From Pseudomonadota bacterium (lineage in GTDB: Bacteria; Desulfobacterota; Binatia; Binatales; Binataceae), in contig JAJPIF010000025.1 of the NCBI GenBank assembly GCA_021324885.1, positions 46,713 through 110,712 of the forward strand: a DNA stretch of 64,000 bases, given 5' to 3'. Position numbers and translations under genes: made by a program. Each line of letters opens with the position of its first letter. Positions within the stretch are counted from its first letter, which is position 1. Of the stretch, positions 5,550-23,935 are shown piece by piece. Under the pieces are notes generated by a model. It searched no databases, was not told the origin of the DNA, and was given only the letters and a program-made list of their open reading frames with translations.

Positions 5550-5746
5550 GGCGGCTATGTTACTGGCGCACGGACGCCTTGGGAATTGAGCGCGCCATTT
5601 CCGTGGAGATAATGTGAATTGCTCCGAAAAAAAAATCGTGCCTTGCGCAAACCACTGTGTTAGCCTCTAATCGAGTGAAGGATACAGGTACGAATAAGTC
5701 ACGGAAATATCGCCGCAACGGCAGCAATGAGATCCTGACCACCAGG

Positions 5747-5899
5747 ATGGTTGCTGATTACCTCCACTGCCACTTGAGCACCGTCTACAGGCTTGTCAAG
5801 CAAGGCAAGATTCCGCACTTCAAGCTGGGTGGCGATTTGCGCTTCGAAAAGGCAGCCATTGACGAGTGGATTGAAAAGGGCGGCGGCGCGCAGGATTAG
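5747..5899 (+). CDS. small helix-turn-helix DNA-binding protein (excisionase/MerR-like HTH_17 type)
   Basis: ORF 5657..5899; conserved core MVADYLHCHLSTVYRLVKQGKIPHFKLGGDLRFEKAAIDEWIEK starts at the internal Met (5747). Pattern typical of excisionase-family HTH domains. Confidence 0.55.
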   Translation: MVADYLHCHLSTVYRLVKQGKIPHFKLGGDLRFEKAAIDEWIEKGGGAQD

Positions 5900-6187
5900 A
5901 GTCTTTTGCTAACCGCCCTCGATTTCGCTTGCTCGCCGGCGAAAGGGCATCGCGAACTGGCGCAACCGCTTGATTGCGCCAGAGGGAGATCTTCTGTCAC
6001 CAGACTCTGGCCGGCATTCATCGTGCGATCGCGCCGGTTCTTCGCGTGAACCAAAGCCGTTTTTGCAAGACTTTTGAGCGCAGTCCCGGCCGCAATTGAG
6101 GCTTGTGCGCCATCAGATTTGCGCCAGGCTGCGCAATCAGCCACAGGAGCGTGACGCGAGGCCTCCTTACCGCAGGTCGAGACTAAA

Positions 6188-6967
6188 TCAGAAATCAAGC
6201 GGAAGTTGCAGATACTGGCGGTAGATAAAATCCCGATGCTCCAGCAGCTCGGGTCTGACCGCCTCCACCACGCGCGGATCATTCGCCGTATAGGTAGTGC
6301 GCAGCCATCGCGGCATGTCGCAAAGCTCCGGTGGCAGCGGCTGGATCATCGCCGCGGAAGCCGCCCAGTAAATATCAAGCGCGGACAATTCGTTTCCGAT
6401 CAGAAAGTGGCTGCCGTCCTGCCGCTGACGTTGCAGCCGCTCGCCAAACATCAGTATGATCCGCGAGGCGCGCAGCGAGGCGCGCTCCGCCTCGCCGGGC
6501 ACGCCATGCTGATACTTGGCGGCCAGAAAATCGACCATCGCGCGCGCCTTTTCATTGAGCTTCAAATTGGTCTGTCCGCGACGGATCGCGAGCACGCGCA
6601 GGCTCCATACCAACCCTGTCTCGCCCATCAATTCGTTGGCCATCCCGAACATCAGCGCCCGCTCCTCGATATCAGGCGGAAGCAACTGCGGCAGCGGCGC
6701 GATACGCTCGGCGAGATAAAGCTGATCGTTCCATACCGTGCGCGGGCGCTCGTCGTTCCAGGCCATCACGGGTGACGAAGTCTGCGCGGTCCATTGCTGC
6801 AACTCCAGACTGGGCGTCCCCACTTCATGCAACGCGCGGACATAGGGAATCTTCTTAACGTGTAGGATACCCTTAAGCGATTCAGCCCAGGGACCGGGCG
6901 CAGGCGGCAACACCACGCGCAAACCGGACATCTCGCGCGCCTGCGCAATACTGACATATTCCGCCAT
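6188..6967 (-). CDS. glutathione S-transferase family protein (GST-like, thioredoxin-fold N-domain)
   Basis: ORF 6188..7087 would abut the tRNA. Internal starts at 6994 or 6967 are more likely. N-terminal GST_N-like pattern (LRVVLPPAPGPWAESLKGILHVKKIPY ... VMAWNDERPRTVWNDQLYLAERIAP). Family assignment by motif only. Confidence 0.45.
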   Translation of the reverse strand: MAEYVSIAQAREMSGLRVVLPPAPGPWAESLKGILHVKKIPYVRALHEVGTPSLELQQWTAQTSSPVMAWNDERPRTVWNDQLYLAERIAPLPQLLPPDIEERALMFGMANELMGETGLVWSLRVLAIRRGQTNLKLNEKARAMVDFLAAKYQHGVPGEAERASLRASRIILMFGERLQRQRQDGSHFLIGNELSALDIYWAASAAMIQPLPPELCDMPRWLRTTYTANDPRVVEAVRPELLEHRDFIYRQYLQLPLDF

Positions 6968-7090
6968 CAGCAGGCCTCCCGACTTTTCGAGCATCGCACG
7001 GTGAGAACTGTCGCACCAGAGCGCAGTCTGGGCAAGGATCTTGCCACAAGGCTCCTCATGCAATAAAAATAAGGGTTCCCAACGCACAGC

Positions 7091-7167
7091 GCGCCCTTAG
7101 CTCAGCGGATTAGAGCATCAGACTACGGATCTGAGGGTCGGGGGTTCAAATCCCTCAGGGCGCGCCA
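7091..7167 (+). tRNA. tRNA-Arg (anticodon ACG)
   Basis: 77-nt cloverleaf folded by hand: acceptor GCGCCCT/AGGGCGC, D-arm GCTC..GAGC, anticodon stem TCAGA/TCTGA with loop CTACGGA (anticodon ACG), variable loop GGGTC, T-arm GGGGG-TTCAAAT-CCCTC, discriminator G, encoded CCA. Confidence 0.9.
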
Positions 7168-10688: not shown

Positions 10689-11396
10689 GTGCCCATGTTC
10701 AGGAAGTGTATTCTCAACCGCGGCCCTCACTTCGCCAACGCGGCTTCGGGAATGGTCGTGCGAGGATTCGTGGTTGTCGTGCTTGTCCTTTGCCTCTGTG
10801 CAATCACCCGTGCCTCTGATTATGCAGCGGCGCCCTCGCAGTCGGCGCAGCGTCCGGTCTTCGTCGCGTGCGGTGAATATGCGCGCAAGGCGAGCGCTCA
10901 CATGCGCGGGATTGTAAGCGCCGTCGATCAGGTCTGGGACGCTCACGTCAGGGTTTATGAGTCGGTAGCGGTCGAACCTCCGCACGCGCGGCCCGGTGGA
11001 TGCATCATGTACAACACCGCTTATCTCAACATGCTGCTTCAGGATCTGTTGATCCGAGATCGGACGGTCGCGCAATCAATGCTGTACGCGATCATGGCTC
11101 ATGAGGTCGGGCACGAGCTGCATCACGATTTCAGCCCTCAACGCGCAAGCGTGCCAACCGAGACCAAAGAACTGCAAGCGGACCGATTCGCCGGATATAC
11201 AATGGAACGGCTCAATATAAACCTTGACAATATCGTGCCCTATTACAGCCTGGCGGGAGACGAATTCACCGGACAAGTCGGCCGTCCCGCCAGTCACGGC
11301 GAAAGCATGCAGCGCACCGACGCGCTCAAAAAGGGCTGGGACCAGGCGGAGTGGAACCAGCCCGAAGACTATCAGGGGCTGTCAGAAGACCAATAG
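10689..11396 (+). CDS. secreted minimal M48-like zinc metallopeptidase (HExxH ... ExxAD)
   Basis: GTG start 10689 (alternative ATG 10695). N-terminal signal/TM (VVRGFVVVVLVLCLCAITRA). HEVGHELHH zinc-binding motif followed by TKELQADRFAGY, resembling the third-ligand ExxAD motif of M48/HtpX-type peptidases. Confidence 0.5.
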   Translation: MPMFRKCILNRGPHFANAASGMVVRGFVVVVLVLCLCAITRASDYAAAPSQSAQRPVFVACGEYARKASAHMRGIVSAVDQVWDAHVRVYESVAVEPPHARPGGCIMYNTAYLNMLLQDLLIRDRTVAQSMLYAIMAHEVGHELHHDFSPQRASVPTETKELQADRFAGYTMERLNINLDNIVPYYSLAGDEFTGQVGRPASHGESMQRTDALKKGWDQAEWNQPEDYQGLSEDQ

Positions 11397-12111: not shown

Positions 12112-12806
12112 TATTGTGGCACGCCAGCCTCCCTACTTTGTGTAATTAAAACTTACATGTATCAATAATCGGTCTATCCTGCAAGTTGTAGCTCCCGCTT
12201 AAAGCCACATGCTTGAGACTTTCAAACCGGATTTTCAAACCAGGTGGATAATTGGCCCGCGCGCCACTCAAAATCCGGACGGCTTGCGCCTGGCTGACCC
12301 GCAGGATTATTGAGCAGCCACGGATCGCTCTGTCGCTGGACATGCAATTCGTTTCCCTCTTCAGGCGCAAGTGACGCGAGCCCACTCGGGAAAGCCCCCG
12401 GGAGCGCCCCGCCTTTTCAACAAAAAGTAGGATGGTTTTACATTTTAGCTGACACAATTTAGATAATATTGATTAAGACATCATACATATGACATGATTT
12501 TCATATTTAATGCCTGTTAAGCCAGCGCTCATTCGCTTTTGAGATCTTGACGGTTTTTGGCTAAAATAATCGCGTTTATTGGCCTCTATGGGCAGGCAGT
12601 GTGACTGTGAAGACGATTGGAGACATGGGCGGGATTGTCGGCGTAAGCACATCCGTGGAGGTAGGTGACAGTTTGAATTCACCGGTCTGCGCATTCTTGC
12701 GTCGCACCGCTTCTTCCGGGGCGGGCAAACGGGGCCTGAGCGAAGGTGCCTGTACCAAGTCGGCACAGTTTCATCATCGGCCGGTCAGGACGGAGAGCAA
12801 ATAAAA
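12112..12806. other. AT-rich non-coding spacer upstream of the vWA-PP2C-kinase triad
   Basis: About 700 bp without a convincing ORF. Local GC falls to about 35-45% (e.g. 12420-12540) against about 63% around it. Ends in a GGAGAG ribosome-binding site before the vWA start. Confidence 0.5.
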
Positions 12807-13427
12807 ATGGTTGAGCGGATTGGAGCTATCACCGAAACCAAACGCTTCGAACAACTCGGTATCCTGGTGTTGGACGGATCTCCCTCGATGCAGGTTCCGG
12901 GTGAGACTGGTGTCCCCAAGACGGAAGAGGTCGCGTCCGCCGTCCGCGATCTGATTTTGAGAATGCGCAACTCGCGCCTCAGGTCCAATTTTTTTCTTTC
13001 TATCTTGAGCTACGATGAGAAAGTCAGAGGCCGACTCCCACCCACTCCGGTTTCGGAAATAGATGAAACCGCTGACTATAGTAATAATTTCGAGCACGGC
13101 AATGGCACCGCGATGGGTGACGCCTTGGAAGCCGCCGGCAAAGTTGCCGCGGAATTCCTGTCCAATCAGGGAGCAATTCCACGTTCGGCCGTTATTGTTT
13201 TAATGACCGACGGCCAGAATACCACCGGGAAAGATCCGGTCATGGTGGCCAACGCCATAAAAAACAGCGGACAGCGTATCTCGATCTGTGCGGCCGGATA
13301 CGGCAAGGACATTGACGAGGCCGGCTTGAGGAAACTGGTCAGCACGGCCAACAGCTATAAGCATACATACAATATCGAGGAATTGCGGCAGTTTTTCGAG
13401 GCCAGTATCTCAGTGGTAAGTGGATAG
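12807..13427 (+). CDS. von Willebrand factor type A (vWA) domain protein, TerY-like
   Basis: 206 aa. MIDAS motif DGSPSM at 12873-12890 (LVLDGSPSM), downstream VIVLMTDGQNT and AAGYG strands typical of vWA folds. Confidence 0.8.
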   Translation: MVERIGAITETKRFEQLGILVLDGSPSMQVPGETGVPKTEEVASAVRDLILRMRNSRLRSNFFLSILSYDEKVRGRLPPTPVSEIDETADYSNNFEHGNGTAMGDALEAAGKVAAEFLSNQGAIPRSAVIVLMTDGQNTTGKDPVMVANAIKNSGQRISICAAGYGKDIDEAGLRKLVSTANSYKHTYNIEELRQFFEASISVVSG

Positions 13428-13556
13428 GCTCTGAGGGCGCAATCAGTGCTGTCGAACCGAGCGGATCCGGTCGAGAGCGGACTTTAAGCGCGCAGCAGCG
13501 CCGTCCTTGAACGATTGGAATGAGCCAATCCTGTTGCGACTCGACTAAAAAGTCCT

Positions 13557-14477
13557 ATGAATAAGGCCAATCCTTACCCCTATCTGCTCATCAACACTCC
13601 CAGAGAAGCTGCCCCCTACACGATGCCCGGTATAGCGGCTGCCGCGACGGTCACTTCGAAGGGAACCAACCAGGATTCCTGCCAGATACGGTGCGCGGAC
13701 AACTTCTGCGCAATCGCGGTTGCCGACGGTCTGGGCACTTCGTTCGACGCCCACCTGGCCGCCTCGATAGTAACAACCGCTTTCGTGGAGGAATGCGGCG
13801 CCTTGGCCGCCCCAGGAGTCCTCCCTAGCACCGGTGCGGTGAACTTGGTATGGAAGAGGGTTGCCAAGCAACTGCATGATCACTATGTGCAGAGCCCCGA
13901 CCGCTATTTCGAACAGTCGGCGCCGCTGCAAACGACCCTGCTAGCGCTGATCGATACCGGCGACACGTATCTGTTCACCTATCTCGGCAACGGCAGCCTG
14001 CTCTATCTTCGCGGTGATTTCTGGCGCTTCAAGGGCAGGGACTGGCCTTGGTGCAGCACCGATCTAATCGTCAGCCACTCGTTCTTGGACAATGCGGGCA
14101 GAAGCAGACTTTACGGGATCATAGGACCCAACGGCCTGACGGCGGAACCCAACATGGGGCTGCTATCGAAGGATCAACGCTACGGGGAGTTCCTGATTCT
14201 ATGCACCGACGGAATAAGTTCGGCCGATAGTTTGAAAGTGGGACGGGATCCGCAGGAAAAGCTCTGGCTCGAAGCCAATAAAAACCTGGAAATCCTGATC
14301 AACCATGCGCTGCCCCGGTTTCTCGCTGAACTGGCAATGGATGCGCCCCCTGAACAGGCGCTGAGCGCGACCCTGAACACATATTTAGCCGGACAAAGTT
14401 TCGACGACGACGCGACCGTCGCGGTGCTGGTGTCGCGCCAGGCTATTGCTTATGCAAAGCAAAGATTTGGAAGATGA
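13557..14477 (+). CDS. PP2C-family serine/threonine protein phosphatase
   Basis: 306 aa; PP2C motifs NQDS, AVADGLGTS, LILCTDGISS. Stop overlaps the start of the next gene (ATGA at 14474-14477). Confidence 0.8.
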   Translation: MNKANPYPYLLINTPREAAPYTMPGIAAAATVTSKGTNQDSCQIRCADNFCAIAVADGLGTSFDAHLAASIVTTAFVEECGALAAPGVLPSTGAVNLVWKRVAKQLHDHYVQSPDRYFEQSAPLQTTLLALIDTGDTYLFTYLGNGSLLYLRGDFWRFKGRDWPWCSTDLIVSHSFLDNAGRSRLYGIIGPNGLTAEPNMGLLSKDQRYGEFLILCTDGISSADSLKVGRDPQEKLWLEANKNLEILINHALPRFLAELAMDAPPEQALSATLNTYLAGQSFDDDATVAVLVSRQAIAYAKQRFGR

Positions 14478-16234
14478 GCACCGCACTTTACATCAGCGGA
14501 GCCTGTGTCCGCTCGGGCCTTGGTCTGACTGCGGAGGAAGACAGCGCCCATGTCATAGAAATCGAAGACCGTCCGCTCGCGAAAGCAGGCGCGCATGGCA
14601 GTATCTTCCGCGCAATCAGCGTGGACGGCAGGCCCGTTTCCCGAAAACTGGTTAAGTGGCTGGCCGGCGGCTTTCCGCCCGACCTCGAGGAGATTCTCAA
14701 CGCATTGCGCATCCACCTCGCGAGCTATCCGCCCGAGGAACGCGTCGCCCTGAGCGCCCTTCCACTATTCATGTTCGAGAGCAGCCGCGCGGGTAAGCCG
14801 TTTCACGGCTACCTGATGCGCGAGGTGGAAGGCATCAATTTTCTCGACATTCTGGTCCAGGACATCAATACATATATCAATCTGCCTTTGGAAACGAGAC
14901 TGCGTCTGAGTCTTCAGTTTGTCGAAGGCATGAACGTCCTCTACGGATGCAACATCATTCATGCCGATCTTAACGGGCAGAACCTGATGGTGGATCTGGA
15001 GAACCAGAAACTCTCGATTATCGATATAGATGGCGCTGCGGTGGGCAGAGCCGATAATATACCTTTCGCTTTAAAATTCGAGCCCGGGTGGCTCGCGCCT
15101 GAAATCGATCGCCAACTCGTCGGCAGCACGCGCAAAGCTTCGGCGACGCTGGACACGCGGATCGACCTGTGGTCAATCGCGTGCGGGCTGCATTATCTGA
15201 TTTTCGGACTTTCTCCCTTTTTCTTCGCCGCCAGCCAGACGGATGTCGAACGCTACCTGGAACGCTACAGCTGGCCCTCTCTGAAGGGGATTGAGGGAGT
15301 CGAACTTCAAAATCAGGATGCCTTCGACTATTTCGAACGAGCCTATCTCGAGGTTCCCGACCTGCATCCGCTCTTTCAGCAGTCGTTTCAGCCGGGATAC
15401 CGTGATCCGTCGGCGAGAATCAATCCTTATCAATGGATGCGGGTTATACGGCGCTCTCTTCTAAAGATATCGTCGCCGCCAAAGAGAACCGAAGCCGCGG
15501 CACAGGTCCGCCGGTACGTCACCCTGGCCCTGGATGATGGAGCGCTGACCAAGAGCGAGGAAGCCTTCATTCTGGACCAGGCCGACCACCTCGGCATCCC
15601 AAGACTGGATCTGACCAGGCTGATCGAAGAGGAGTTCCGGAACTGGCGCAGCAGCATCGACGATGCCCTGGCGAAGAAGAAGGGACGCAAAACCGCGCAG
15701 CCGGAAACGATGGGCCGGCAAATAAAGCTCTTTCCCGTGTCCGGCGAGACGGCGGAGCATCACTTGCGAGCTCACACCGCTGTCTTCCTCGCCATACTGC
15801 TCGTATGCCTGATGGCTTCCCTGAGGTTCAGGAGCTCGCAGGACCTCGCCTCATTTCCACCGCCGCTCACGCCACGGTCGTCGGATGCGGAACCCACAGT
15901 CCCCGGCACTCCGGTTTCCCAGCCGCTCGCATCAGCCGTGCGCCGCTCTCAGGTCTCATCTCGACGTTTGTCATCTGAACGTTTGTCGTCCGAGGTCGAG
16001 CGCCTCCTCGCCGAGCAGGGATATTCCGGGATCAGGGCAAAGGTCAGGAAGTCCGGCAAAATCTATCTCTACGGAATCGCAAACAGCGCCCAGGAGCAGG
16101 AAGATATAATCTGGACGGTGCGTACGATCCGGCGCGTTCGAAAAGTCATATCCCACTTGCGATTGGCACCACAGAACGACAGCGAAGAGATCACCGCCCA
16201 ACAAGATTCATCGGCCGGTTTTCAATCGCATTGA
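14474..16234 (+). CDS. protein kinase-like (ePK-like) domain protein with TM segment and C-terminal BON-like domain
   Basis: 586 aa. Catalytic-loop-like HADLNGQN (about 14960-14983) and DFG-equivalent IDIDG (about 15018-15035). Glycine-rich-like AKAGAHGS and a Lys in VSRKLVK. One hydrophobic TM helix (TAVFLAILLVCLMASL). C-terminal about 60 aa (IRAKVRKSGKIYLYGIANSAQEQEDIIWTVRTIRRVRKVISHL) has the BON-domain pattern. Confidence 0.7.
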   Translation: MSTALYISGACVRSGLGLTAEEDSAHVIEIEDRPLAKAGAHGSIFRAISVDGRPVSRKLVKWLAGGFPPDLEEILNALRIHLASYPPEERVALSALPLFMFESSRAGKPFHGYLMREVEGINFLDILVQDINTYINLPLETRLRLSLQFVEGMNVLYGCNIIHADLNGQNLMVDLENQKLSIIDIDGAAVGRADNIPFALKFEPGWLAPEIDRQLVGSTRKASATLDTRIDLWSIACGLHYLIFGLSPFFFAASQTDVERYLERYSWPSLKGIEGVELQNQDAFDYFERAYLEVPDLHPLFQQSFQPGYRDPSARINPYQWMRVIRRSLLKISSPPKRTEAAAQVRRYVTLALDDGALTKSEEAFILDQADHLGIPRLDLTRLIEEEFRNWRSSIDDALAKKKGRKTAQPETMGRQIKLFPVSGETAEHHLRAHTAVFLAILLVCLMASLRFRSSQDLASFPPPLTPRSSDAEPTVPGTPVSQPLASAVRRSQVSSRRLSSERLSSEVERLLAEQGYSGIRAKVRKSGKIYLYGIANSAQEQEDIIWTVRTIRRVRKVISHLRLAPQNDSEEITAQQDSSAGFQSH

Positions 16235-16331
16235 CCAGGAGCAAAATCCCCCGGATTCATTATGCCGAAGCTGGTTTCCTGAAGCTTCAGCGTCCCGCCT
16301 GAATTCGCGTGGGGCGCGGCTCGCTGCCGAC

Positions 16332-17945
16332 TCAGGGGAACCAGTACACCGCGCGGGCGCCGCCGGGCCGCGAGTCGATTTCGGGTGTGACGGCGGTTCC
16401 GGTCCTGGCAAACAAGACCGACACGGCATCACGGTAAATAATTTTCCAGCGCCGATCGCCGGCCATGATGCGATAGGCGCCACCTTGCGGATTTATAAGC
16501 ACGAAGTCGTGCGGGTACCGATCGAGTAACCTGTTCCCGCCGGGCCATGCATACAGGAAAGCCATATATTCCTGCAGTACTGAGTCCGGATACACGACTT
16601 CGCACCGCCCATCGACAAAGATCCTGTCATCCGGACCGCCGTGCCAGATCAGGTAAGCGCCCCAGCTCAGTTTGTTCAGTATGTTCCCATGCAGACCGTG
16701 GTCGGTCATGTATTGCACGGCGCCCTTCGGAACCGGGTTCCACGTCCTCAGACGGGTGGAAAACTCGCCACCTAATATCAGCAGGATCAGCGCGGCTTCA
16801 AGTGGAAAAACTACGGTCAGCAGCCGTGAAGGAGCCGCTTTACTCCTCTCCTTCCCGGACTGTCGACGCTTTTCCATAATAAGACCGGCATGATGAGCCA
16901 AAGGAATGCTCAGGGCTATCATCGCCAGCGGCACATTGCGGGAACTGTATATTGCCGCCGCGATAAAGATTGCGGCGACAGCCGCAAGCGGGGCATCCTC
17001 ACCATCCGGCACCGCGACAACCGCACCGAGGAAAGCGACGAACAGGACGAGCGGGATGACGAACTCCATTTCGTGCAACGGCGATTGATGCCATTCGTAG
17101 ATCATTATGTCCGGCAGCGAGAGCCAATCCACAATGAATTTCCTTATAAACGGATGGGACACCGAGTGCAGCACCGTGTCCCAAAGGCCGAAACCGAAGG
17201 GATTGACCAGGGTCGCCATCGCACATGCAATTGTAACCGCACCGATCCTGCAGGCCCGGGAGATCCTCCGCCCCGTTCCCATCTCCCGCCAGCCCACAAA
17301 CAGACTCGTAACTGATAAAGCTCCAAGACCGACGACGAAGCCACCATGCAGATTTGCCCAAAGGGCAAACAGCGGCACCAGCGGCCACATTCGTGCCCGA
17401 CCCTGATAAACCTCGCCGGCGAGAATCGCCATCAGGACGCTCAGCATCGCGATCGTAAATAACTGAGGTCTGAATTGCGCGTAAGGAGCAATACTCGCCG
17501 CTGCCGCGAGCAGAACAATTCTCCGCATGCTGGGCGAAGCCTTGGTCCGGGACAGTCCCGCCGCGAGGCCGGCGACGGCCACGCCAACGCATAGCAGTTT
17601 GACAACCTTCAGCCCTATGATCCCCAGCGAGTCGTAAAAAAAAGCAAAAATAAGCTGCGCCAACCACACATGATTATGCCATGGTTGCACGGGACCCGAA
17701 TACGAAAATGAATTACGCGGCGGTATGTAACCCCCGCTCAGCATTTCGCGCCCCAACAAAATATGCATCCAAAGATCGGGGTCGGCGAAATTTACACAGG
17801 CGGCAGCCGCAATTGCCAGTATCACGAATGCGGGAGAAGACTCCAGCAGCCCAGGTCCGGACTGAACCGGTGTCTGCGGAGCTGTAAGCTGCGGCGCTTC
17901 ACAATTGGCTGCTTGCGGCGAGGCCGTCGCGCGGTTCATTTTCAA
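16332..17945 (-). CDS. large polytopic membrane protein, putative GT-C-fold glycosyltransferase (family unassigned); paralog A1
   Basis: 537 aa; more than 10 predicted TM helices then a C-terminal soluble domain. First-loop acidic motif DPDLWMH. Clearly paralogous to the next gene (shared ADPDLW.H, LWANxHGGF, WK.IYRD). Confidence 0.55.
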   Translation of the reverse strand: MKMNRATASPQAANCEAPQLTAPQTPVQSGPGLLESSPAFVILAIAAAACVNFADPDLWMHILLGREMLSGGYIPPRNSFSYSGPVQPWHNHVWLAQLIFAFFYDSLGIIGLKVVKLLCVGVAVAGLAAGLSRTKASPSMRRIVLLAAAASIAPYAQFRPQLFTIAMLSVLMAILAGEVYQGRARMWPLVPLFALWANLHGGFVVGLGALSVTSLFVGWREMGTGRRISRACRIGAVTIACAMATLVNPFGFGLWDTVLHSVSHPFIRKFIVDWLSLPDIMIYEWHQSPLHEMEFVIPLVLFVAFLGAVVAVPDGEDAPLAAVAAIFIAAAIYSSRNVPLAMIALSIPLAHHAGLIMEKRRQSGKERSKAAPSRLLTVVFPLEAALILLILGGEFSTRLRTWNPVPKGAVQYMTDHGLHGNILNKLSWGAYLIWHGGPDDRIFVDGRCEVVYPDSVLQEYMAFLYAWPGGNRLLDRYPHDFVLINPQGGAYRIMAGDRRWKIIYRDAVSVLFARTGTAVTPEIDSRPGGARAVYWFP

Positions 17946-17979
17946 GACGTCGAGTGTGTTGGATTTCCGCTGCTGTCAG

Positions 17980-19560
17980 CTATGGAAAAAAAGTGGCCAC
18001 GGGGGATTCATTTGAGATCTCGGGCGTAATTGCGGCGTTCGCGTCCGTGGCCTTGGCGTATAAAGAGGCAACCGGGTCGCGGTAGATCAGCTTCCAGCGT
18101 GAATCGGAGTTCACCAATTCAAAAGCGCCGGTACCTGGCTCAACCAGCACGAAATCGTGACGATAATCGTTAAGGACCTTGTTTCCAACTGGCCAGCCGT
18201 ACAAAAAACTGAGATATTGCGACCGCAGTTTTTCTGAATACACGAGTTGATAGCGGCTGTCGATGAAGATTCTGCTTGCCGGCGCAAGGTGCCAAATCAG
18301 ATAGCCGCCCCAGTCGTAATTATTCAAAATGTTGCCGTGAAGACCATGCGATTCCATGAATGCGACCGCACCTTCTGGTACCGGCTCCCAGGTTTTTAGA
18401 CTGCCGGACAATTCACCTCCCACCATTCCGATTATGACCGCGGCGACGAGCGCAAGCGCCGCCCTGGGCTGCGCCGAAATTGTGTTGACAGCATCGGGCC
18501 CGCGATTTCGCGCGGCAATTCCAAGGTGGTGTGTCAGGGGAATGCTTACTGCAATAATCGCCAGCCCGACATTGCGATTGGAGTAAAAGGCTCCTGCAAT
18601 AAAAACCAGCGCAATCGCCGTCAGCCCGGCGTCGTCGAATACCCGAGTCTCCACCAACACCGCAGGCAGACCCACGAACAGCAACAATGGCACGGCATAG
18701 GCGATGGGTTCGGAAATCGACTCCCGCGATGCGTGAAACAGAAAAATCGGGAGGGGCGCCCAATCCGATATTATCGGACGCATAAGCGGATCCGATGCGG
18801 ATTTTAAAAAGGTTGTCCATAGACGGATGCCAAGAGGATTGACGAGCGTGGCCAAGGCGCATCCAAGAGTGACTGCAGCAACTACGGCGGTGCGCGCCAG
18901 CGTGCCTTTGATCAGATATTCGCGCAGTCCGCACGTCAGGACGAAAACGCCCAGCGCGCCGAGTCCCGCAAAACAGCCGGCGTGGAAATTGGCCCACAGT
19001 GCAAAGATCGGGATCAGCGTCCATAATCTTACCGGACCGCGGTATGTCTCTGCCGCCAATTTCGCGATCACTATACTCAACATCACCAAAGTGAAAAGAG
19101 TTGGACGAAACTGGATTTGCGAAATGAGCGCGGTGGCCACAACGAGCAACATCACTCGCTGCGTGCGCGCTGGCGCCCCCGTGCGGCCCAGCGCGACAGC
19201 CAGCGCAATCATCAGGATCGCCGAGCACAGCAGCTTTACCAGCTTGAGACCGAGGACGCCCAGCCATCGGTAAGAGGTCCCAAGCACCACTTCGGACAGC
19301 CATTCGTGATTGTCCCAAGGCAACCCCGACGCCGCATATGAGTACAGGTCGCGGGTCAGAATGTGACCTGTCGCGACCATCCGCTGTCCTGCCAGGACAT
19401 GGACCCAGAGGTCCGGATCGGCATAATTGGACGCACAGGCAAACGCAACCGCCAAAACCACGAAGCCCGGCGCGGACCGCAGGACGCTATAGGCCGGGGC
19501 GACAGGCGTCCGCCCCGCGATTTCCCCTTGCGCCGGGTTGATGACTGATTCTGACGTCAT
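17980..19560 (-). CDS. large polytopic membrane protein, putative GT-C-fold glycosyltransferase; paralog A2
   Basis: ORF to 19602, but ATG at 19560 forms an ATGA overlap with the stop of the upstream gene (19557). Paralog of 16332..17945. Confidence 0.55.
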   Translation of the reverse strand: MTSESVINPAQGEIAGRTPVAPAYSVLRSAPGFVVLAVAFACASNYADPDLWVHVLAGQRMVATGHILTRDLYSYAASGLPWDNHEWLSEVVLGTSYRWLGVLGLKLVKLLCSAILMIALAVALGRTGAPARTQRVMLLVVATALISQIQFRPTLFTLVMLSIVIAKLAAETYRGPVRLWTLIPIFALWANFHAGCFAGLGALGVFVLTCGLREYLIKGTLARTAVVAAVTLGCALATLVNPLGIRLWTTFLKSASDPLMRPIISDWAPLPIFLFHASRESISEPIAYAVPLLLFVGLPAVLVETRVFDDAGLTAIALVFIAGAFYSNRNVGLAIIAVSIPLTHHLGIAARNRGPDAVNTISAQPRAALALVAAVIIGMVGGELSGSLKTWEPVPEGAVAFMESHGLHGNILNNYDWGGYLIWHLAPASRIFIDSRYQLVYSEKLRSQYLSFLYGWPVGNKVLNDYRHDFVLVEPGTGAFELVNSDSRWKLIYRDPVASLYAKATDANAAITPEISNESPVATFFP

Positions 19561-21704
19561 CGCGCGGTGGTCAATGCCGCCTTGGTTGAATCGGCACCGC
19601 AATGGCGGAATGCCGCGGGGCGCAAATCCATGAGCATGAAACGCATAATATCGTCCGGCTCCACATGGTCATCGTATGGTGTCGGATATGGATACAGGAT
19701 GCTGACGGCGTCCGATCCGTATTTCGCGGCGAGCGCCCGGGCGGCTATACCAGAGGCAGGCACACCGACGGCAATCGTGCCCGCGGGTCCAGGTCCGACC
19801 CACAAACCATTGTAGGCGTTGTGCGGCAGGCCCGCGACCAGAAAGTCCAGATCGTCGCTCCAACCCGAGTAATTCAGAAGACCAAGCTTGTAAGCCTTGC
19901 GTGGATCGAGTGTCGCCAAATCCCCGCCTTTGGCGATAAACCGTTGCCCCGCACACAGCATATACCTGAACCACGCATCAGCGGTGTCCAGCTGAAATCG
20001 TTCAAGATCCTGCGCAGACGATCGAGGTGAATAGTCCTGACCCAGGCGATAAAGCGAAACGCCACCCACCTTTATCGGCCTGATTCCAAGCGAGGCGGCG
20101 AGCTCGCGCGCGGATCCTTTCGCGTTGTCCACCACGATAATGTCGTCAATTCCGTAGGCCGAGTTGAATGCCCGAAGCTGCTTACCGGGGTCGGGCAATG
20201 GCAAAGAGTTCACCAGCGCATTCACGATAGGCCATCGGCGAAACTCGGCGGGCGTCGTGCTGAGATGGCCGCCGGGCATTCGAAAATACATCGAGGACTC
20301 AGCCTGCCATGCCATGCTCGGTCCGCGCCGGCCGAACGGTATAATCAGAACATTGTCATTGGGTCGGAGATAATTACGGTAAAGGCCGTCTTCAAAGAAG
20401 GCGGGCGTAGCGTAGGTCGATCTTGGTAAAAATATTGCCGGAACGGGCAAAAGCGCCACCATCGTTGCCCCAACAAAGACTTTTTTGAAGGGGAAGTTCG
20501 GTTCGGACAGCCAGCTGGCGAAGATAACCGCCAGAATCAAAAAATCATAATTAGCAAGCCTCACCGGAAGCGCATGACGAATCAAAGGTAGTCTTTCGAC
20601 GAAAGCCCAGGGGAGCATAACAAGCGCACGCCGCTCGACCTGCAATACCGGGCCCAAAGCGGCCACACTAACGATGATCAGAAGAATACAAAGCATTCGC
20701 GCAGACGGGTCGTGACGGTGACTCCATAACCAGATCCCAGCCACCAGTACCAACGGTATACTCAGATAGGAACCGTTTTCCCAGATGTTCCCGGTAAATC
20801 GGGAGGCTATCGCAGTCGCAGTCAACGGCTGAACCAGCAAAAAATGACCCGGAATGACGAAGCTCAGCAGATCCGCGGAAAATAGTCTGGCAGGAAAAAC
20901 CGGATCTTTCGGCGGCGAGCCTTTAACAAACGCGTAATACCAGAAAGGCGCCAGAAGCAGTCCCGCCAGTATATAAGCAAGCCCTGTCGCCCAGACAGCC
21001 CCAATCAGACGCGGCCTCGTCTCGCGAATCATGATTATACCCAGCACTAACGCCGCGGCACCGAACAAAGTCATCGTTGCGAATACTTCTGTGGAAATCA
21101 GGCATTGTAGCGTAAGCGCGGAAGCAAGACCAAGGGCAAACCTGCGCGGGGGCATCCTGTTTTCAACGAGTAATATCACCAGCAACACGCACAAAGGCGC
21201 AACGAAATTAAAGGTCAGAACCGGATGGCCGCCAATCACGTGAGCGACCTCATAAGGAGAAAAGCCGTAAATGAAGCCGCCCGCCAGCGCGCTGACGAAA
21301 TTACGAATCATATGCCGGCAGAGCAGAAATGCGGTCCATGCGGATAATGCCGGCGCAATCAGGGAGGCGACATTGTAGGCGACAACCGGACCAAGTGCGC
21401 AAGTGATCGGCGCCATTGCGATTGCAACGGCAGGCATCGAAGTCGCCCATGTCAAGTTGTAGCCGGTCCGCGGCCAAACCGCATGCGTGATAAACGGATT
21501 CAGGTGATTGGCAATGGCATGGGGCCACCACTCCAAATACCACATCATCATCGCCGGGTCGCTGAAGTAGCCTATGTGCAAGCGGGCGGGATCGAAGATC
21601 ACCGGAATCCCGAAAAAACAAATCGAAACGCAAATGTAGATTAGTAGAGCCGTCAATCCCCCTTTGTTTAAGCTCGTCGGCTTGAAATCTTTCGCGAAAA
21701 GCAT
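19557..21704 (-). CDS. large polytopic membrane protein with C-terminal extracytoplasmic domain, putative GT-C-like; paralog B1
   Basis: 715 aa; N-terminal multi-TM region (GYFSDPAMMMWYLEWWPHAIANHLNPFITHAVWP) and a C-terminal domain of about 250 aa. Paralog of 21811..23922. Confidence 0.55.
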   Translation of the reverse strand: MLFAKDFKPTSLNKGGLTALLIYICVSICFFGIPVIFDPARLHIGYFSDPAMMMWYLEWWPHAIANHLNPFITHAVWPRTGYNLTWATSMPAVAIAMAPITCALGPVVAYNVASLIAPALSAWTAFLLCRHMIRNFVSALAGGFIYGFSPYEVAHVIGGHPVLTFNFVAPLCVLLVILLVENRMPPRRFALGLASALTLQCLISTEVFATMTLFGAAALVLGIIMIRETRPRLIGAVWATGLAYILAGLLLAPFWYYAFVKGSPPKDPVFPARLFSADLLSFVIPGHFLLVQPLTATAIASRFTGNIWENGSYLSIPLVLVAGIWLWSHRHDPSARMLCILLIIVSVAALGPVLQVERRALVMLPWAFVERLPLIRHALPVRLANYDFLILAVIFASWLSEPNFPFKKVFVGATMVALLPVPAIFLPRSTYATPAFFEDGLYRNYLRPNDNVLIIPFGRRGPSMAWQAESSMYFRMPGGHLSTTPAEFRRWPIVNALVNSLPLPDPGKQLRAFNSAYGIDDIIVVDNAKGSARELAASLGIRPIKVGGVSLYRLGQDYSPRSSAQDLERFQLDTADAWFRYMLCAGQRFIAKGGDLATLDPRKAYKLGLLNYSGWSDDLDFLVAGLPHNAYNGLWVGPGPAGTIAVGVPASGIAARALAAKYGSDAVSILYPYPTPYDDHVEPDDIMRFMLMDLRPAAFRHCGADSTKAALTTAR

Positions 21705-21810
21705 TGAGATTATTATGGGAACGCAATTTCAACGCGAGCATCGGACGAGCATCGGCAAAAGACGACGCCTCGCCCTATTCGGATTTCAAGCCTTCGTGTG
21801 GTTGCGCAGA

Positions 21811-23922
21811 TCATTTGAGTACCGCCCATGACGAGGTTGCGGAATCCAAATCGCAGCGCCGCAATGCCTCCGGGCGCAGGTTCATAAGCAGAAAATGGAC
21901 GTTATCGTCGGGGGCCGCGGTATTCCTGTATTCCCGTGGATAGGGATACAAAACCCGGGTCGCATCATTTTTAAACTGCGCAGCGAGTACATGGGCGGCA
22001 AAACCTGACGCCGGAACGCCGACCGCCACGGTGCCGCCGGCGCCGGGCCCTATCCACAGACCGTTATCGCCCCATTGAAACAATCTGATAAGAGTCTCCA
22101 GATTATCATTCCACCAGGAATCCGGAAGCAGCCCCAGTTCGTGGGCTTTGACCGGGTCGAGTTCCGAGAGCGGGTTTCCCATGGCGAGGTAGCGTTGTGC
22201 GGCGCAGAGCATGTTCAGAAACCACGTCTGCGCCGCGCTTTGCTGAAGGCGTTCGATCGGCTGTACCCGCTCGCGGCCGCCGCCCGTCAGTGGATAGAGA
22301 TACACACCACCAATGCGTTGCGCTTTTATCCCCAGCAAAGAGGGGAGTTCGGCGGCGTTGCCTTCGGCTTTTTGGGTTACGACGATGGCGCTCAGGTTTT
22401 GATCGGCCGCAAAAGCACGCAGTTGCCCGAGAGGATCGGATACTGGAATCGAGGTGAGCAATGTATTAACGACCGGCCAGCGGCGGTAATATTCCGGAAT
22501 CGTCCCGAAGTATCCGCCGGGCATACGAAAGTACATCCATGATTGTGCCTGCCACGCCAGGCTTGGACCGTTGAACGCAAAAGGTATTACAAGAAGATTA
22601 TCGTTGCGGTGAAAATATTTGCGGTAAAGCCCGTCAGCGAAGAATGAAGGCGGATCATAGAGGCATGGATGCAGGAAAAGCAACGGATTCGGAAGGAAGG
22701 CGAGGAGCGTCGCGCACACCATCACTTGCTTGTAGCGCCCGGGTTCCGACAACCACATGCTGAACACGATAGCCAAAACCAGGAATGCGTAGTTGGTAAA
22801 GCGGACCGGCAAAGCGTGTTCGATTAACGGGACTTTCTCCATAACGGCCCAGGGAAAGCGCAGAATCCAGCGCTCGCCAATATGCACCGCCGGACCCAGT
22901 GCGGCGATGAGCACCACAACCAGCAACGCACCGAGCAGCCGCGCTTGCGGCTCGCGCCGGTGACGCCAGAACCAGAAAATGGCAATCGCCAGGAGCGGAA
23001 TACTTAAATATGAACCGGTTTCGGAAAGATTCCCCACGGAGCGCAACCGCACAGCGTCGGCGCCGAACCGGTTAAACAGCATCAATGGGGTGGGAGCGAC
23101 GAAGCTCGTCAAATCGGCGGAAAATTGCCGTATTGCGAGGAGCGGTTCTTTGGGCGCCGATCCTTTGATAAAGACGTAGTACAGGAAAGGACTGAGGATG
23201 ATTATCGCTGATACATAGGCTGTTGCCGCAAGCGGGACGGCGCGGGTGAGGCCGTCACGCCAGCGGCGCGCGATCAGCCATGCCAGTGCAAACGCCACCG
23301 CGCCGAACAGCGTCATGGTCGCGAGCACCTCGGTCGAAATCAATGTCTCGCACACCAGGGCAGCGCAAAACGCGAGGGTGAATTTTGCGGGACCGATACC
23401 ACCCTGGAGCAGCAGGACCACCAGCAAGAGGCACAAAGGCGGGATGAAGTTGAATGTGAGATGGAGATGTCCGCCGAAAACCTCTCCGACCTCGTAGGGC
23501 GAAAAGCCATAGATGAGGCCTCCAGCGAACGAACTTGCGGCATTAGCGGTAAGCCGCCGGCACAAAAGAAAAGCGGCCCATGCGGACAAGGCCGGCGCGG
23601 TCAGCGATGCGGCATTGTAGGCGACGACCGGCCCGAAGATCGCTGTTATCGGAGCGAACGCGGCCGCCACCGCCGGAATCGATGTCGCCCAGGTCAGATT
23701 GTAGCCGGTCGAGGGCCAGACGGCGTAGGTAATGAACGGGTTTATCCGGTGCCACACGGCATACGGCCACCATACCAGGTACCACATCATCATGGAGGGG
23801 TCGCCAAAGTGTCCCCCAATGTAAAAGCGGCTCGGTCCGGCTCCAATCAGGTACGCCCCAAAGAGGAGGATCGAAATCAGAAGATAAAGCACGAACACCG
23901 ACAGGGGCCGGATTCCTAGCAT
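21811..23922 (-). CDS. large polytopic membrane protein, putative GT-C-like; paralog B2
   Basis: 703 aa; shares block-wise identity with B1 (GHFGDPSMMMWYLVWWPYAVWHRINPFITYAVWP etc). Confidence 0.55.
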   Translation of the reverse strand: MLGIRPLSVFVLYLLISILLFGAYLIGAGPSRFYIGGHFGDPSMMMWYLVWWPYAVWHRINPFITYAVWPSTGYNLTWATSIPAVAAAFAPITAIFGPVVAYNAASLTAPALSAWAAFLLCRRLTANAASSFAGGLIYGFSPYEVGEVFGGHLHLTFNFIPPLCLLLVVLLLQGGIGPAKFTLAFCAALVCETLISTEVLATMTLFGAVAFALAWLIARRWRDGLTRAVPLAATAYVSAIIILSPFLYYVFIKGSAPKEPLLAIRQFSADLTSFVAPTPLMLFNRFGADAVRLRSVGNLSETGSYLSIPLLAIAIFWFWRHRREPQARLLGALLVVVLIAALGPAVHIGERWILRFPWAVMEKVPLIEHALPVRFTNYAFLVLAIVFSMWLSEPGRYKQVMVCATLLAFLPNPLLFLHPCLYDPPSFFADGLYRKYFHRNDNLLVIPFAFNGPSLAWQAQSWMYFRMPGGYFGTIPEYYRRWPVVNTLLTSIPVSDPLGQLRAFAADQNLSAIVVTQKAEGNAAELPSLLGIKAQRIGGVYLYPLTGGGRERVQPIERLQQSAAQTWFLNMLCAAQRYLAMGNPLSELDPVKAHELGLLPDSWWNDNLETLIRLFQWGDNGLWIGPGAGGTVAVGVPASGFAAHVLAAQFKNDATRVLYPYPREYRNTAAPDDNVHFLLMNLRPEALRRCDLDSATSSWAVLK

Positions 23923-23935
23923 TTAGGGGTTCCGC

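What the first reader, a model, noticed from the sequence alone, without database searches (positions are those of the whole stretch)
12807..16234. Compact vWA - PP2C phosphatase - kinase(TM-BON) triad with translationally coupled phosphatase/kinase
Three co-directional genes: a vWA (TerY-like) protein, a PP2C Ser/Thr phosphatase, and a kinase-like protein. The phosphatase stop and kinase start share ATGA (14474-14477). The vWA/PP2C/kinase combination has been described in comparative genomics as a TerY-P-like phosphorylation switch, seen in stress-response and phage-defence islands. This copy differs from the usual soluble kinase. Its kinase is fused to a TM helix and a C-terminal BON-like domain, and may also carry a TerB-like helical segment (RRYVTLALDDGALTKSEEAFILDQADHLGIPRLDL). 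The triad sits behind an AT-rich spacer and next to a large pilus/glycosylation island. It is a self-contained signalling module of unknown output and a good candidate for an uncharacterised envelope-stress or anti-phage switch.
Basis: partly seen in the sequence, partly recalled or inferred. Interest (0 to 1): 0.72.

Follow-up and report, generated by a model that had tools for sequence, protein, structure and literature searches.

The report
Three-gene phosphorylation switch with membrane kinase
This is a real, conserved three-gene cassette (metal-binding vWA protein, PP2C phosphatase, Ser/Thr kinase) of the known "TerY-P triad" type, unusual only because its kinase crosses the membrane once and carries a lipid-binding-type BON domain on the outside.

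Summary
There are three co-directional ORFs: vWA (12807-13427), PP2C (13557-14477) and a Hanks-type kinase (14474-16234). The PP2C stop and kinase start share ATGA. All catalytic and metal-binding residues are conserved.

The order vWA->PP2C->kinase recurs in essentially every relative found: about 30 loci from at least seven phyla, with unrelated flanks. DNA homology to a 58%-identical relative starts exactly at the vWA start codon and ends inside the kinase. Ka/Ks is 0.05-0.14 for the folded parts.

This is the known TerY-P triad architecture, seen in the Klebsiella ter cluster, E. coli yegL-pphC-yegI, and the Gao 2020 and CoCoNuT variants. Shared hallmarks are the DxD loop replacing DFG, the vWA C-terminal FFxxxSxS motif and the ATGA coupling. 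PADLOC's TerY-P models do not match it.

The kinase tail is the new part: a helical juxtamembrane segment, one TM helix, a Pro/Ser linker and a BON domain. The TerB likeness of the helical segment is weak and below threshold. This tail exists in only four protein clusters among billions searched. Relatives carry other tails instead (BON+PDZ, SH3, zinc ribbon, Ig-like repeats).

Best reading: a receptor-type version of the triad that senses envelope state. The output is unknown. It is a new variant of a known kind, of moderate interest.

The parts
12420..12577 (+). AT-rich upstream region conserved with the closest relative. It contains a sigma-70-like site (TTGAGA-17-TAAAAT, 12539-12567). Candidate promoter of the operon.
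   Evidence: blastn against L001 gives 69.5% over 164 nt, the only conserved piece of the 695-bp spacer. The promoter-like match comes, but such matches are no more frequent than in shuffles, so this is a candidate only. 12400-12600 is 38.8% GC.
12807..13427 (+). vWA (TerY-like) protein, 206 aa, cytosolic. It has a complete MIDAS site and a conserved C-terminal LRxFFxxSxS motif.
   Evidence: Pfam VWA 1.5e-13. MIDAS residues D23, S25, S27, T101 and D135 are 100% conserved in 25 triads, as are R194, F196, F197 and S200. No hydrophobic segment. hhalign against the TerY/YegL set gives probability 98.7, E 2.6e-16. Ka/Ks is 0.05 against L001.
13428..13556 (+). 129-bp vWA-PP2C spacer with no recognisable element.
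   Evidence: No terminator-like site here. The RNA fold z-score is -1.4, not significant. Sequence is conserved with L001 but poorly with L003.
13557..14477 (+). PP2C-type Ser/Thr phosphatase, 306 aa, cytosolic.
   Evidence: Pfam PP2C_2 2.4e-11 and SpoIIE 3.5e-4. Metal-binding residues D40, D57, G58, D218, G219, D284 and D285 are conserved in 28 homologues. Ka/Ks 0.09.
14474..14477 (+). ATGA overlap of the PP2C stop and the kinase start (translational coupling).
   Evidence: Read directly. The same 4-bp overlap occurs in L001 and L003. Relatives L008, L009, L010 and L011 have overlaps or gaps of <=2 bp. The E. coli triad pphC-yegI also has an ATGA overlap (bioRxiv 10.1101/819920).
14474..15469 (+). 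Kinase residues 1-332: Hanks-type protein kinase domain. It is a non-RD type (HAD instead of HRD) with DID instead of DFG.
   Evidence: Pfam Pkinase 1.6e-12. AF2 pLDDT is mostly >85. Foldseek hits GSK3 and CK2 at E about 1e-10. Invariant or near-invariant residues: G39, G42, K61, H163, D165, D184, D186, A208-P209-E210, D231, R315. Ka/Ks 0.12.
15485..15682 (+). Kinase residues 338-403: three-helix juxtamembrane segment, cytosolic, possibly half of a TerB-like domain.
15755..15835 (+). Kinase residues 428-454: single transmembrane helix.
   Evidence: Kyte-Doolittle 19-residue mean is 2.01 at residues 434-452. AF2 models a helix at 428-454. A TM at the same position is present in L001, L003, L008, L015 and L009.
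15836..15961 (+). Kinase residues 455-496: disordered Pro/Ser-rich linker.
   Evidence: pLDDT <50. Ka/Ks 0.48 for residues 406-496. The single base that differs from the public record lies here, at 15923.
15962..16165 (+). Kinase residues 497-564: BON domain, inferred to be periplasmic.
   Evidence: Pfam BON 7e-6, and 1.1e-8 in an orthologue. Reciprocal hits are BON proteins. The alpha-beta-beta-alpha-beta fold has pLDDT 80-88. Ka/Ks 0.14.

Best explanation
This is an operon of the TerY-P phosphorylation-triad class in which the kinase has become a single-pass receptor kinase.

Shown:
- Three intact, co-transcribable genes under purifying selection.
- They are always found together and in this order.
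- All catalytic and metal-binding residues are kept.

Inferred topology: the kinase domain and the helical juxtamembrane segment are cytoplasmic. After the TM helix, a flexible Pro/Ser linker holds a BON domain in the periplasm.

Inferred mechanism:
1. The BON domain belongs to a family whose characterised members (OsmY, DolP) bind envelope phospholipids. Here it would report a change in the envelope.
2. That change alters kinase oligomerisation and autophosphorylation.
3. The active kinase phosphorylates the cytosolic vWA protein. Candidate sites are the invariant Ser residues in the C-terminal FFxxSxS tail, next to the last helix of the vWA fold. Other targets are possible.
4. Phosphorylation switches what the MIDAS face of the vWA protein binds.
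5. The co-translated PP2C resets the switch.

The biological output (stress adaptation or immunity) is not determined.
For: The order vWA->PP2C->kinase holds in all relatives examined, from Proteobacteria, Acidobacteriota, Bacteroidota, Verrucomicrobia, Nitrospiraceae, Armatimonadaceae and others, with unrelated flanks. Homology to L003 is restricted to the triad. Ka/Ks is 0.05-0.14 for vWA, PP2C, the kinase domain, the helical segment and BON, but 0.48 for the linker.

Features shared with recognised TerY-P triads:
- The same gene order as in the Klebsiella ter cluster and E. coli yegL-pphC-yegI.
- A DxD loop in place of DFG in all four kinases: DID, DVD, DAD and DSD. It is shown to be indispensable in YegI.
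- The vWA C-terminal FFxxxSxS motif, with hhalign E 2.6e-16.
- The ATGA overlap, also present in E. coli.

Evidence for the outside location of the tail:
- The kinase has no signal peptide and has one TM helix after a 430-residue ATP-dependent domain.
- The tails of the nearest TM-bearing relatives are also typical envelope domains: BON+PDZ in P0004 and SH3_3 in P0007.

Precedent: YegI autophosphorylates with second-order kinetics and is membrane-embedded.
Against: No experiment bears on this locus.
- The topology is inferred. The positive-inside rule is not decisive for this helix.
- The window BON score is 0.3 bits under Pfam's cut-off.
- Phosphorylation of the vWA protein has not been shown for any TerY-P triad that I could find. 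The substrates of YegI are unknown.
- No conserved fourth gene identifies an output.
- The alpha-C glutamate is not clearly conserved in the alignment.
Confidence: 0.55

Rival explanations
1. It is an anti-phage defence system of the TerY-P kind. Infection activates the kinase, which then blocks the phage by phosphorylating host or phage proteins. In this reading the TM-BON tail only anchors the system at the envelope, where phage DNA enters, or it senses the breach.
For: TerY-P triads protect E. coli against T7-like phages (Gao 2020, as summarised in PMC7699616). A variant protects P. aeruginosa against Autographiviridae (10.1101/2022.08.12.503731).

Relatives of this kinase sit in defence-like or mobile contexts:
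- SIR2_2 plus NUDIX beside L008
- PNP_UDP_1 beside L011
- TrwB/TraG beside L010
- an integrase 2.7 kb upstream in L015
- HSDR_N in one upstream ORF
- an MkoA-like helicase after the Rhodoferax plasmid triad

The variable C-terminal modules and patchy taxonomic spread are typical of conflict systems.
Against: PADLOC's TerY-P models barely register: PP2C E 0.004, STK_OB E 0.023, and no hit for the vWA protein. The window's flanks are metabolic genes and membrane glycosyltransferase/pilus genes, with no recognisable defence or mobility gene and no att repeat of the nearby tRNA-Arg. GC content is only mildly below the window mean. BON, PDZ and SH3_3 tails point to envelope sensing rather than the nucleic-acid sensing suggested for the OB and zinc-ribbon variants.
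Confidence: 0.25
2. It is a dedicated regulator of the adjacent block of large polytopic membrane proteins, the GT87 glycosyltransferase and the Tad pilus genes.
For: The triad abuts the 537- and 540-aa membrane-protein genes both in the window and in the 73%-identical relative L001. DNA homology runs continuously over 12748-19450. L001 also has a Tad gene and a GT2/GtrA gene upstream.
Against: The neighbours are convergently transcribed, not co-operonic. In the 58% relative the flanks are completely different (SDR, DUF4236, PPDK), and homology ends at the triad borders. None of the roughly 25 more distant triads has such neighbours.
Confidence: 0.1
3. It is a chance adjacency of three unrelated or decaying genes.
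For: None was found. The only mild point is that the window BON score and the TerB score fall below Pfam cut-offs.
Against: The order is conserved in about 30 loci from many phyla. Purifying selection is strong. All active-site residues are intact. The ATGA coupling is conserved.
Confidence: 0.01

Closest known systems
TerY-P (TerY-phosphorylation) triad of ter clusters (Anantharaman, Iyer & Aravind 2012, cited through PMC11090510 and PMC4978471). Example: Klebsiella plasmid NZ_CP141988.1.
   Same: It has a vWA protein, a PP2C and a Hanks-type kinase in the same order. The kinase has a DxD loop in place of DFG (DVD there, DID here). The vWA protein has the C-terminal FFxxxSxS motif. It is hypothesised to be a metal-linked phosphorylation switch.
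   Different: There it sits among TerD, further TerY paralogues and biosynthetic ter genes, with a 577-aa PP2C and a soluble kinase. Here no ter gene is nearby. tblastn with the window vWA finds none of the >2300 TerY-bearing plasmids that YegL finds.
E. coli yegL-pphC-yegI (Rajagopalan & Dworkin, bioRxiv 10.1101/303594 and 10.1101/819920)
   Same: It has the vWA-PP2C-kinase order and an ATGA overlap of phosphatase and kinase. The eSTK is membrane-embedded, has an essential DSD loop and autophosphorylates in an oligomerisation-dependent way.
   Different: YegI is a two-pass protein with both ends in the cytoplasm and no extracytoplasmic domain. The window kinase is single-pass with a BON domain beyond the membrane. 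Pairwise BLASTP between the two triads is not significant.
TerY-P defence systems: the Gao et al. 2020 STK-OB variant, the P. aeruginosa variant, and the CoCoNuT-associated STK-zinc-ribbon variant
   Same: Same three-gene architecture. The kinase C-terminus carries a variable accessory domain. The nearest relative without a TM helix (P0005/L014, 46-48% identical in the kinase domain) has the zinc-ribbon form.
   Different: In those systems the accessory domains are cytoplasmic and thought to bind nucleic acid. PADLOC's TerY-P models do not recognise the window proteins. No McrBC/CoCoNuT or helicase partner is present here.
Receptor-type bacterial eSTK/PP2C pairs (PknB-PstP and PrkC-PrpC with PASTA domains; P. 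aeruginosa PpkA-PppA, whose kinase carries a periplasmic vWA domain). From my own knowledge; not tested here.
   Same: A cytoplasmic Hanks kinase, one TM helix and an extracytoplasmic sensor domain, with a cognate PP2C encoded next to it.
   Different: The sensor domain is BON rather than PASTA or vWA. A separate cytosolic vWA protein is an obligatory third partner. The kinase is a non-RD type with a DxD loop.
Deinococcus radiodurans DRA0331-0334 (vWA, TM kinase, FHA protein, FHA-PP2C). bioRxiv 10.64898/2026.01.23.701218
   Same: An operon that joins a vWA protein, a transmembrane STPK and a PP2C.
   Different: It has a different gene order, an extra FHA adaptor and an FHA-fused phosphatase. 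There is no BON domain. Homology was not tested.

Membership tests
TerY-P triad (architecture class) | A vWA protein with an intact MIDAS site, a PP2C phosphatase and a Hanks-type Ser/Thr kinase encoded together | tested here: met
   Pfam hits. Conserved MIDAS, PP2C and kinase residues.
TerY-P triad (architecture class) | The three genes behave as one conserved unit across genomes | tested here: met
   The order is the same in all relatives with upstream DNA, across many phyla and with different flanks. Homology to L003 is confined to 12807-15646.
TerY-P triad (architecture class) | The vWA protein is of the TerY type | tested here: inconclusive
   hhalign of the triad vWA set against TerY1-3/YegL/Rhodoferax gives probability 98.7 and E 2.6e-16, and the FFxxxSxS C-terminal motif is shared. 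However, any vWA domain would score in hhalign, and tblastn finds no ter-plasmid TerY, whereas YegL finds 2332 plasmids.
TerY-P triad (architecture class) | Kinase of the triad type (DxD in place of DFG) | tested here: met
   DID in the window, with D184 and D186 invariant or near-invariant. DVD in the ter-cluster kinase, DAD in Rhodoferax and DSD in YegI. That this motif defines the class is my inference from four examples.
TerY-P triad (architecture class) | Linkage to Ter genes or to DNA-processing/restriction modules | tested here: not met
   Nothing of the kind lies within +/-10 kb. Stand-alone triads are also known, so this feature is not obligatory.
Gao 2020 TerY-P defence system as modelled in PADLOC | Matches to the PADLOC TerY-P protein models | tested here: not met
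   PP2C PDLC02222 E 0.004, STK_OB PDLC02223 E 0.023, and no hit for the vWA protein. Relatives and the Rhodoferax triad also fail, so these models are narrow.
Gao 2020 TerY-P defence system as modelled in PADLOC | Kinase C-terminus is an OB fold | tested here: not met
   The C-terminus is helical segment, TM helix, linker and BON.
Gao 2020 TerY-P defence system as modelled in PADLOC | Protects against phage | not testable with these tools
   This needs a phage challenge of an expressing host.
BON domain (PF04972) | Profile match, alpha-beta-beta-alpha-beta fold and the conserved Gly in the G-x-V-x-L-x-G strand | tested here: met
   The window scores 26.7 bits against a cut-off of 27. An orthologue reaches 1.1e-8. 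Reciprocal hits are all BON proteins. Fold. SGKIYLYG has invariant G199 and G205 in the C-terminal alignment.
TerB (PF05099) | Significant profile match or fold match over the domain | tested here: inconclusive
Catalytically competent Hanks-type kinase | Gly-rich loop, beta3 Lys, catalytic Asp, Mg-binding Asn and Asp, APE, subdomain IX Asp, subdomain XI Arg | tested here: met
   G39, G42, K61, D165, N170, D184, A208-E210, D231 and R315. The fold is confirmed. Deviations: HAD instead of HRD, no catalytic-loop Lys, and the alpha-C Glu is not clearly conserved.

The most novel reading that the evidence does not exclude
The TM-bearing clade would be an outside-in version of the TerY-P switch. It comprises the window kinase (BON), P0004 (BON+PDZ), P0007 (SH3_3), and L008 and L015 (ectodomains of unknown type). 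In this reading a periplasmic domain detects damage or penetration of the envelope, for instance by phage adsorption or DNA injection. It then triggers the cytosolic vWA/PP2C/kinase circuit before any phage component is made in the cytoplasm. In the sister clade the same circuit is instead wired to a separate membrane protein, DUF4407. That would mean the triad generally works at the membrane.
Probability: 0.15. Interest if true: 0.7.

Novelty: new variant of a known kind. Interest (0 to 1): 0.4.

Why it matters
TerY-P triads are widespread, and some are proven anti-phage systems. What they sense and what the vWA protein does remain unknown.

A variant whose kinase places BON, PDZ or SH3-type domains outside the cytoplasm shows that the same three-protein core can be connected to envelope inputs. 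It offers a tractable handle: a defined ectodomain with a testable ligand class (lipid or envelope).

The strictly conserved MIDAS site and C-terminal Ser motif of the vWA protein give concrete sites to mutate. In itself, though, the locus is one more member of a described architecture, found in an uncultured soil lineage.

Tried and rejected
1. Canonical Gao-type TerY-P by PADLOC: rejected. Only marginal hits were found, and the models also miss other obvious triads.
2. TerB domain: could be neither confirmed nor excluded.
3. A wider family of kinase-BON fusions: not found.
   - An exhaustive phmmer search of residues 330-586 against 1.84 billion representatives returned only its own cluster plus plain BON proteins.
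   - A profile search of the kinase domain returned 20 proteins, with BON only in P0001-P0004.
   - A metagenome scan returned one locus, identical to the P0004 type.
4. A regulatory RNA or attenuator in the vWA-PP2C spacer: no Rfam hit in the window apart from a tRNA, and the fold is not significant.
5. A tRNA-linked genomic island: no repeat of the tRNA-Arg 3' end and no integrase.
6. Direct homology to E. coli YegL/PphC/YegI by BLASTP: not significant. The relationship rests on architecture and motifs.
7. The original TerY-P paper (PMC4104200) is not held. Whether it already lists TM or BON kinase variants could not be checked.
8. The afdb50 fold library was unavailable.
9. The C-terminus-only AlphaFold model was poor (pLDDT 59.6), so fold matches from it are weak evidence.


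Full report
OBSERVATION

The window carries three co-directional ORFs at the stated coordinates: 12807-13427 (206 aa), 13557-14477 (306 aa) and 14474-16234 (586 aa). The last two share ATGA at 14474-14477.

Pfam gives the following:
- VWA, 1.5e-13
- PP2C_2, 2.4e-11
- Pkinase, 1.6e-12
- BON, 7e-6 for residues 502-566. This is 26.7 bits, just under the 27-bit cut-off.

NCBIfam adds only generic hits.

The 695-bp region upstream is AT-rich. Its core, 12400-12600, is 38.8% GC against 59.1% for the window. The genes downstream on the other strand encode large polytopic membrane proteins without Pfam hits, then a GT87 glycosyltransferase and Tad/T2SSF pilus genes. The window is contig JBAIIF010000223.1 of MAG GCA_037025025.1.

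ARE THE GENES REAL AND INTACT?

The MIDAS residues of the vWA protein (D23, S25, S27, T101, D135) are 100% conserved in 25 homologous triads. A C-terminal LRxFFxxSxS motif is also conserved (R194, F196, F197, S200).

The PP2C keeps its metal-binding Asp and Gly residues: D40, D57, G58, D218, G219, D284, D285.

The kinase keeps G39, G42, K61, H163, D165, D184, D186, APE 208-210, D231 and R315. N170 is read directly from the sequence. It is a non-RD kinase, with HAD in place of HRD and DID in place of DFG.

AlphaFold (mean pLDDT 77) models these parts of the kinase:
- a bilobed kinase domain, residues 1-332
- a confident helical segment, residues 338-403
- a long helix, residues 428-454
- a disordered stretch, residues 455-496
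- an alpha-beta-beta-alpha-beta domain, residues 497-564

Foldseek matches the kinase part to GSK3 and CK2 at E about 1e-10.

Against the 73%-identical orthologue, Ka/Ks values are:

| Part | Ka/Ks |
|---|---|
| vWA | 0.05 |
| PP2C | 0.09 |
| kinase domain | 0.12 |
| helical segment | 0.14 |
| TM + linker | 0.48 |
| BON | 0.14 |

IS THE ARRANGEMENT MORE THAN CHANCE?

A search with the kinase found ten proteins, down to 26% identity. Each of the six whose contigs I fetched sits behind a vWA gene and a PP2C gene in the same order, with unrelated flanks.

A scan of one genome per species returned 23 more loci. They come from Proteobacteria, Acidobacteriota, many Bacteroidota, Verrucomicrobiae, Nitrospiraceae, Armatimonadaceae and Longimicrobium. 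Local phmmer finds the vWA and PP2C genes upstream wherever upstream DNA exists. The exceptions are a short contig with tandem kinases (L029) and an apparently frameshifted copy (L035).

DNA homology to the 58% relative begins at 12807, the vWA start codon, and ends at 15646, inside the kinase. Homology to the 73% relative also covers the two neighbouring membrane-protein genes and a piece of the AT-rich spacer, 12420-12577. That piece contains a sigma-70-like site. The triad is therefore the conserved unit.

WHAT KIND OF SYSTEM IS IT?

This architecture is the TerY-P triad, described as a TerY-like vWA protein, a PP2C and an STK (PMC11090510; PMC4978471). I fetched three reference examples:
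- the ter cluster of a Klebsiella plasmid: vWA, TerD, vWA, TerY-C, PP2C, kinase
- E. coli K-12 yegL-pphC-[yegJ]-yegI
- a Rhodoferax plasmid triad followed by an MkoA-like helicase

All three have the order vWA->PP2C->kinase.

Three finer features are shared:
1. The kinases have DxD where DFG is expected: DID, DVD, DAD and DSD. The DSD of YegI is indispensable.
2. The vWA proteins end in FFxxxSxS. TerY has FFKWVSASV and the window has FFEASISVV. hhalign gives E 2.6e-16.
3. E. coli pphC and yegI overlap by the same ATGA.

Pairwise BLASTP to the E. coli proteins is not significant. The window vWA finds no ter-plasmid TerY by tblastn, whereas YegL finds 2332 plasmids. PADLOC's TerY-P models barely register. 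I therefore file the locus in the architecture class, not in the narrower family tested by Gao et al.

WHAT IS DIFFERENT HERE?

The kinase tail is the difference.

BON is supported by four results:
- the near-threshold Pfam hit in the window
- better scores in orthologues
- reciprocal hits that are all multi-BON, OsmY-like proteins, or a BON+PDZ protein
- the predicted fold

The hydrophobic helix is the only one after a 430-residue cytoplasmic enzyme domain that lacks a signal peptide. The tail must therefore lie outside the cytoplasm. This is an inference.

The nearest relatives, 43-48% identical in the kinase domain, mostly also have a TM helix at the same place but carry other tails:
- BON+PDZ (P0004)
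- several TM helices plus SH3_3 (P0007)
- ectodomains of unknown type (L008, L015)

One of these relatives has a zinc ribbon and no TM helix (P0005/L014). The distant clade has Ig-like repeats and no TM helix.

The exact tail (helical segment, TM helix, linker, BON) is very rare:
- One 50% cluster among 1.84 billion representatives.
- Four 90% clusters among 5.8 billion proteins.
- One further metagenome locus, which is the P0004 type.

A membrane-embedded triad kinase is not new in itself. YegI is one, but with both ends in the cytoplasm and no sensor domain.

THE TERB QUESTION

For residues 330-410, TerB is the only Pfam family that appears. The hit is at E 0.023, below the cut-off, covers only the second half of the profile, and occurs in 2 of 4 orthologues.

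Two weak and independent signals point the same way, so a half-TerB-like hairpin is possible. It is not established.

MECHANISM

Most likely this is a receptor-type TerY-P switch. The periplasmic BON domain senses envelope state. The kinase activates by oligomerisation, as shown for YegI. It phosphorylates the cytosolic vWA protein, and the co-translated PP2C resets it.

All steps after the domain assignments are inferred. The vWA protein is the most constrained component. That fits a role as the key output element.

RIVALS

- A phage-defence role is the main rival. It is compatible with the same mechanism.
  - For: the contexts of relatives and the literature.
  - Against: the window's own neighbourhood and the PADLOC result.
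- Regulation of the adjacent glycosylation/pilus block fits only the two closest genomes.
- Chance adjacency is excluded.

NOVELTY AND SCORE

This is a known kind (TerY-P triad) in a new variant: a single-pass kinase with an extracytoplasmic BON domain and a possible TerB-like juxtamembrane hairpin.

No paper in the searchable library combines a BON domain with a protein kinase, PP2C and vWA. The founding paper could not be read, so prior mention cannot be excluded.

Interest is moderate, at 0.4.

Noticed in passing
window 15923: The window differs from the public record (JBAIIF010000223.1) by one base over the 21.8 kb compared. The window has C and the record has A, which changes Thr to Pro in the disordered linker of the kinase.
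   Followed up: partly
L017 7992-9374; L011 7093-8676; L010 3908-5341; also L016, L018, L019, L021-L024, L027, L028, L031-L034: In the distant clade of this kinase family (mostly Bacteroidota), the triad is really a four-gene cassette. A DUF4407 protein of 400-550 aa directly follows the kinase or precedes the vWA gene. 16 of 18 tested ORFs hit DUF4407, best E 3.6e-89. Those kinases lack a TM helix, and the TM-bearing clade lacks DUF4407. No literature on this was found.
   Followed up: partly
window 16332-25270 (- strand): There is a run of four large polytopic membrane proteins (537, 540, 715 and 703 aa) with no Pfam hit, followed by a GT87 glycosyltransferase and then Tad/T2SSF pilus genes. 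The first two are conserved next to the triad in L001.
   Followed up: no
L003 5593-5916; L039 4831-6054: A small DUF4236 gene lies directly upstream of the triad in the P0004 lineage. A DUF4236 protein is also encoded just upstream of the TerY genes in the Klebsiella ter cluster. The window has no counterpart in its upstream spacer.
   Followed up: partly
L029 2437-4176: In a Longimicrobium MAG, a kinase of this family is fused to a TIR_2 domain (E 5.2e-9). It follows another kinase-family ORF on a short contig where no vWA or PP2C gene is seen.
   Followed up: no
L035 3659-6423: The triad in a Thermoanaerobaculaceae MAG appears broken. The PP2C and the kinase each match as two separate ORF pieces, which suggests frameshifts or a pseudogene.
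   Followed up: no
kinase residues 163-165 and 184-186 (window 14960-14968, 15023-15031): The whole kinase family is non-RD (HAD, with A164 at least 90% conserved) and has DxD in place of DFG. The DxD loop is shared with YegI, the ter-cluster kinase and the Rhodoferax kinase.
   Followed up: partly
window 7091-7167 and 5657-7087: A tRNA-Arg(ACG) gene lies next to an HTH_17 (excisionase-like) gene and an ORF of unknown function. No repeat of the tRNA 3' end occurs elsewhere in the window, so there is no evidence of an integrated island.
   Followed up: yes
window 10902-11396: A small protein with an HExxH-containing stretch gives a weak Peptidase_M48 hit (E 0.0012). It lies upstream of the triad, next to a 206-aa ORF on the opposite strand with no family hit.
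   Followed up: no
L036 8826-12155: The Rhodoferax antarcticus plasmid triad is directly followed by a 1109-aa protein that matches the Mokosh MkoA models (E 1.1e-91). This is a triad-plus-helicase arrangement.
   Followed up: no
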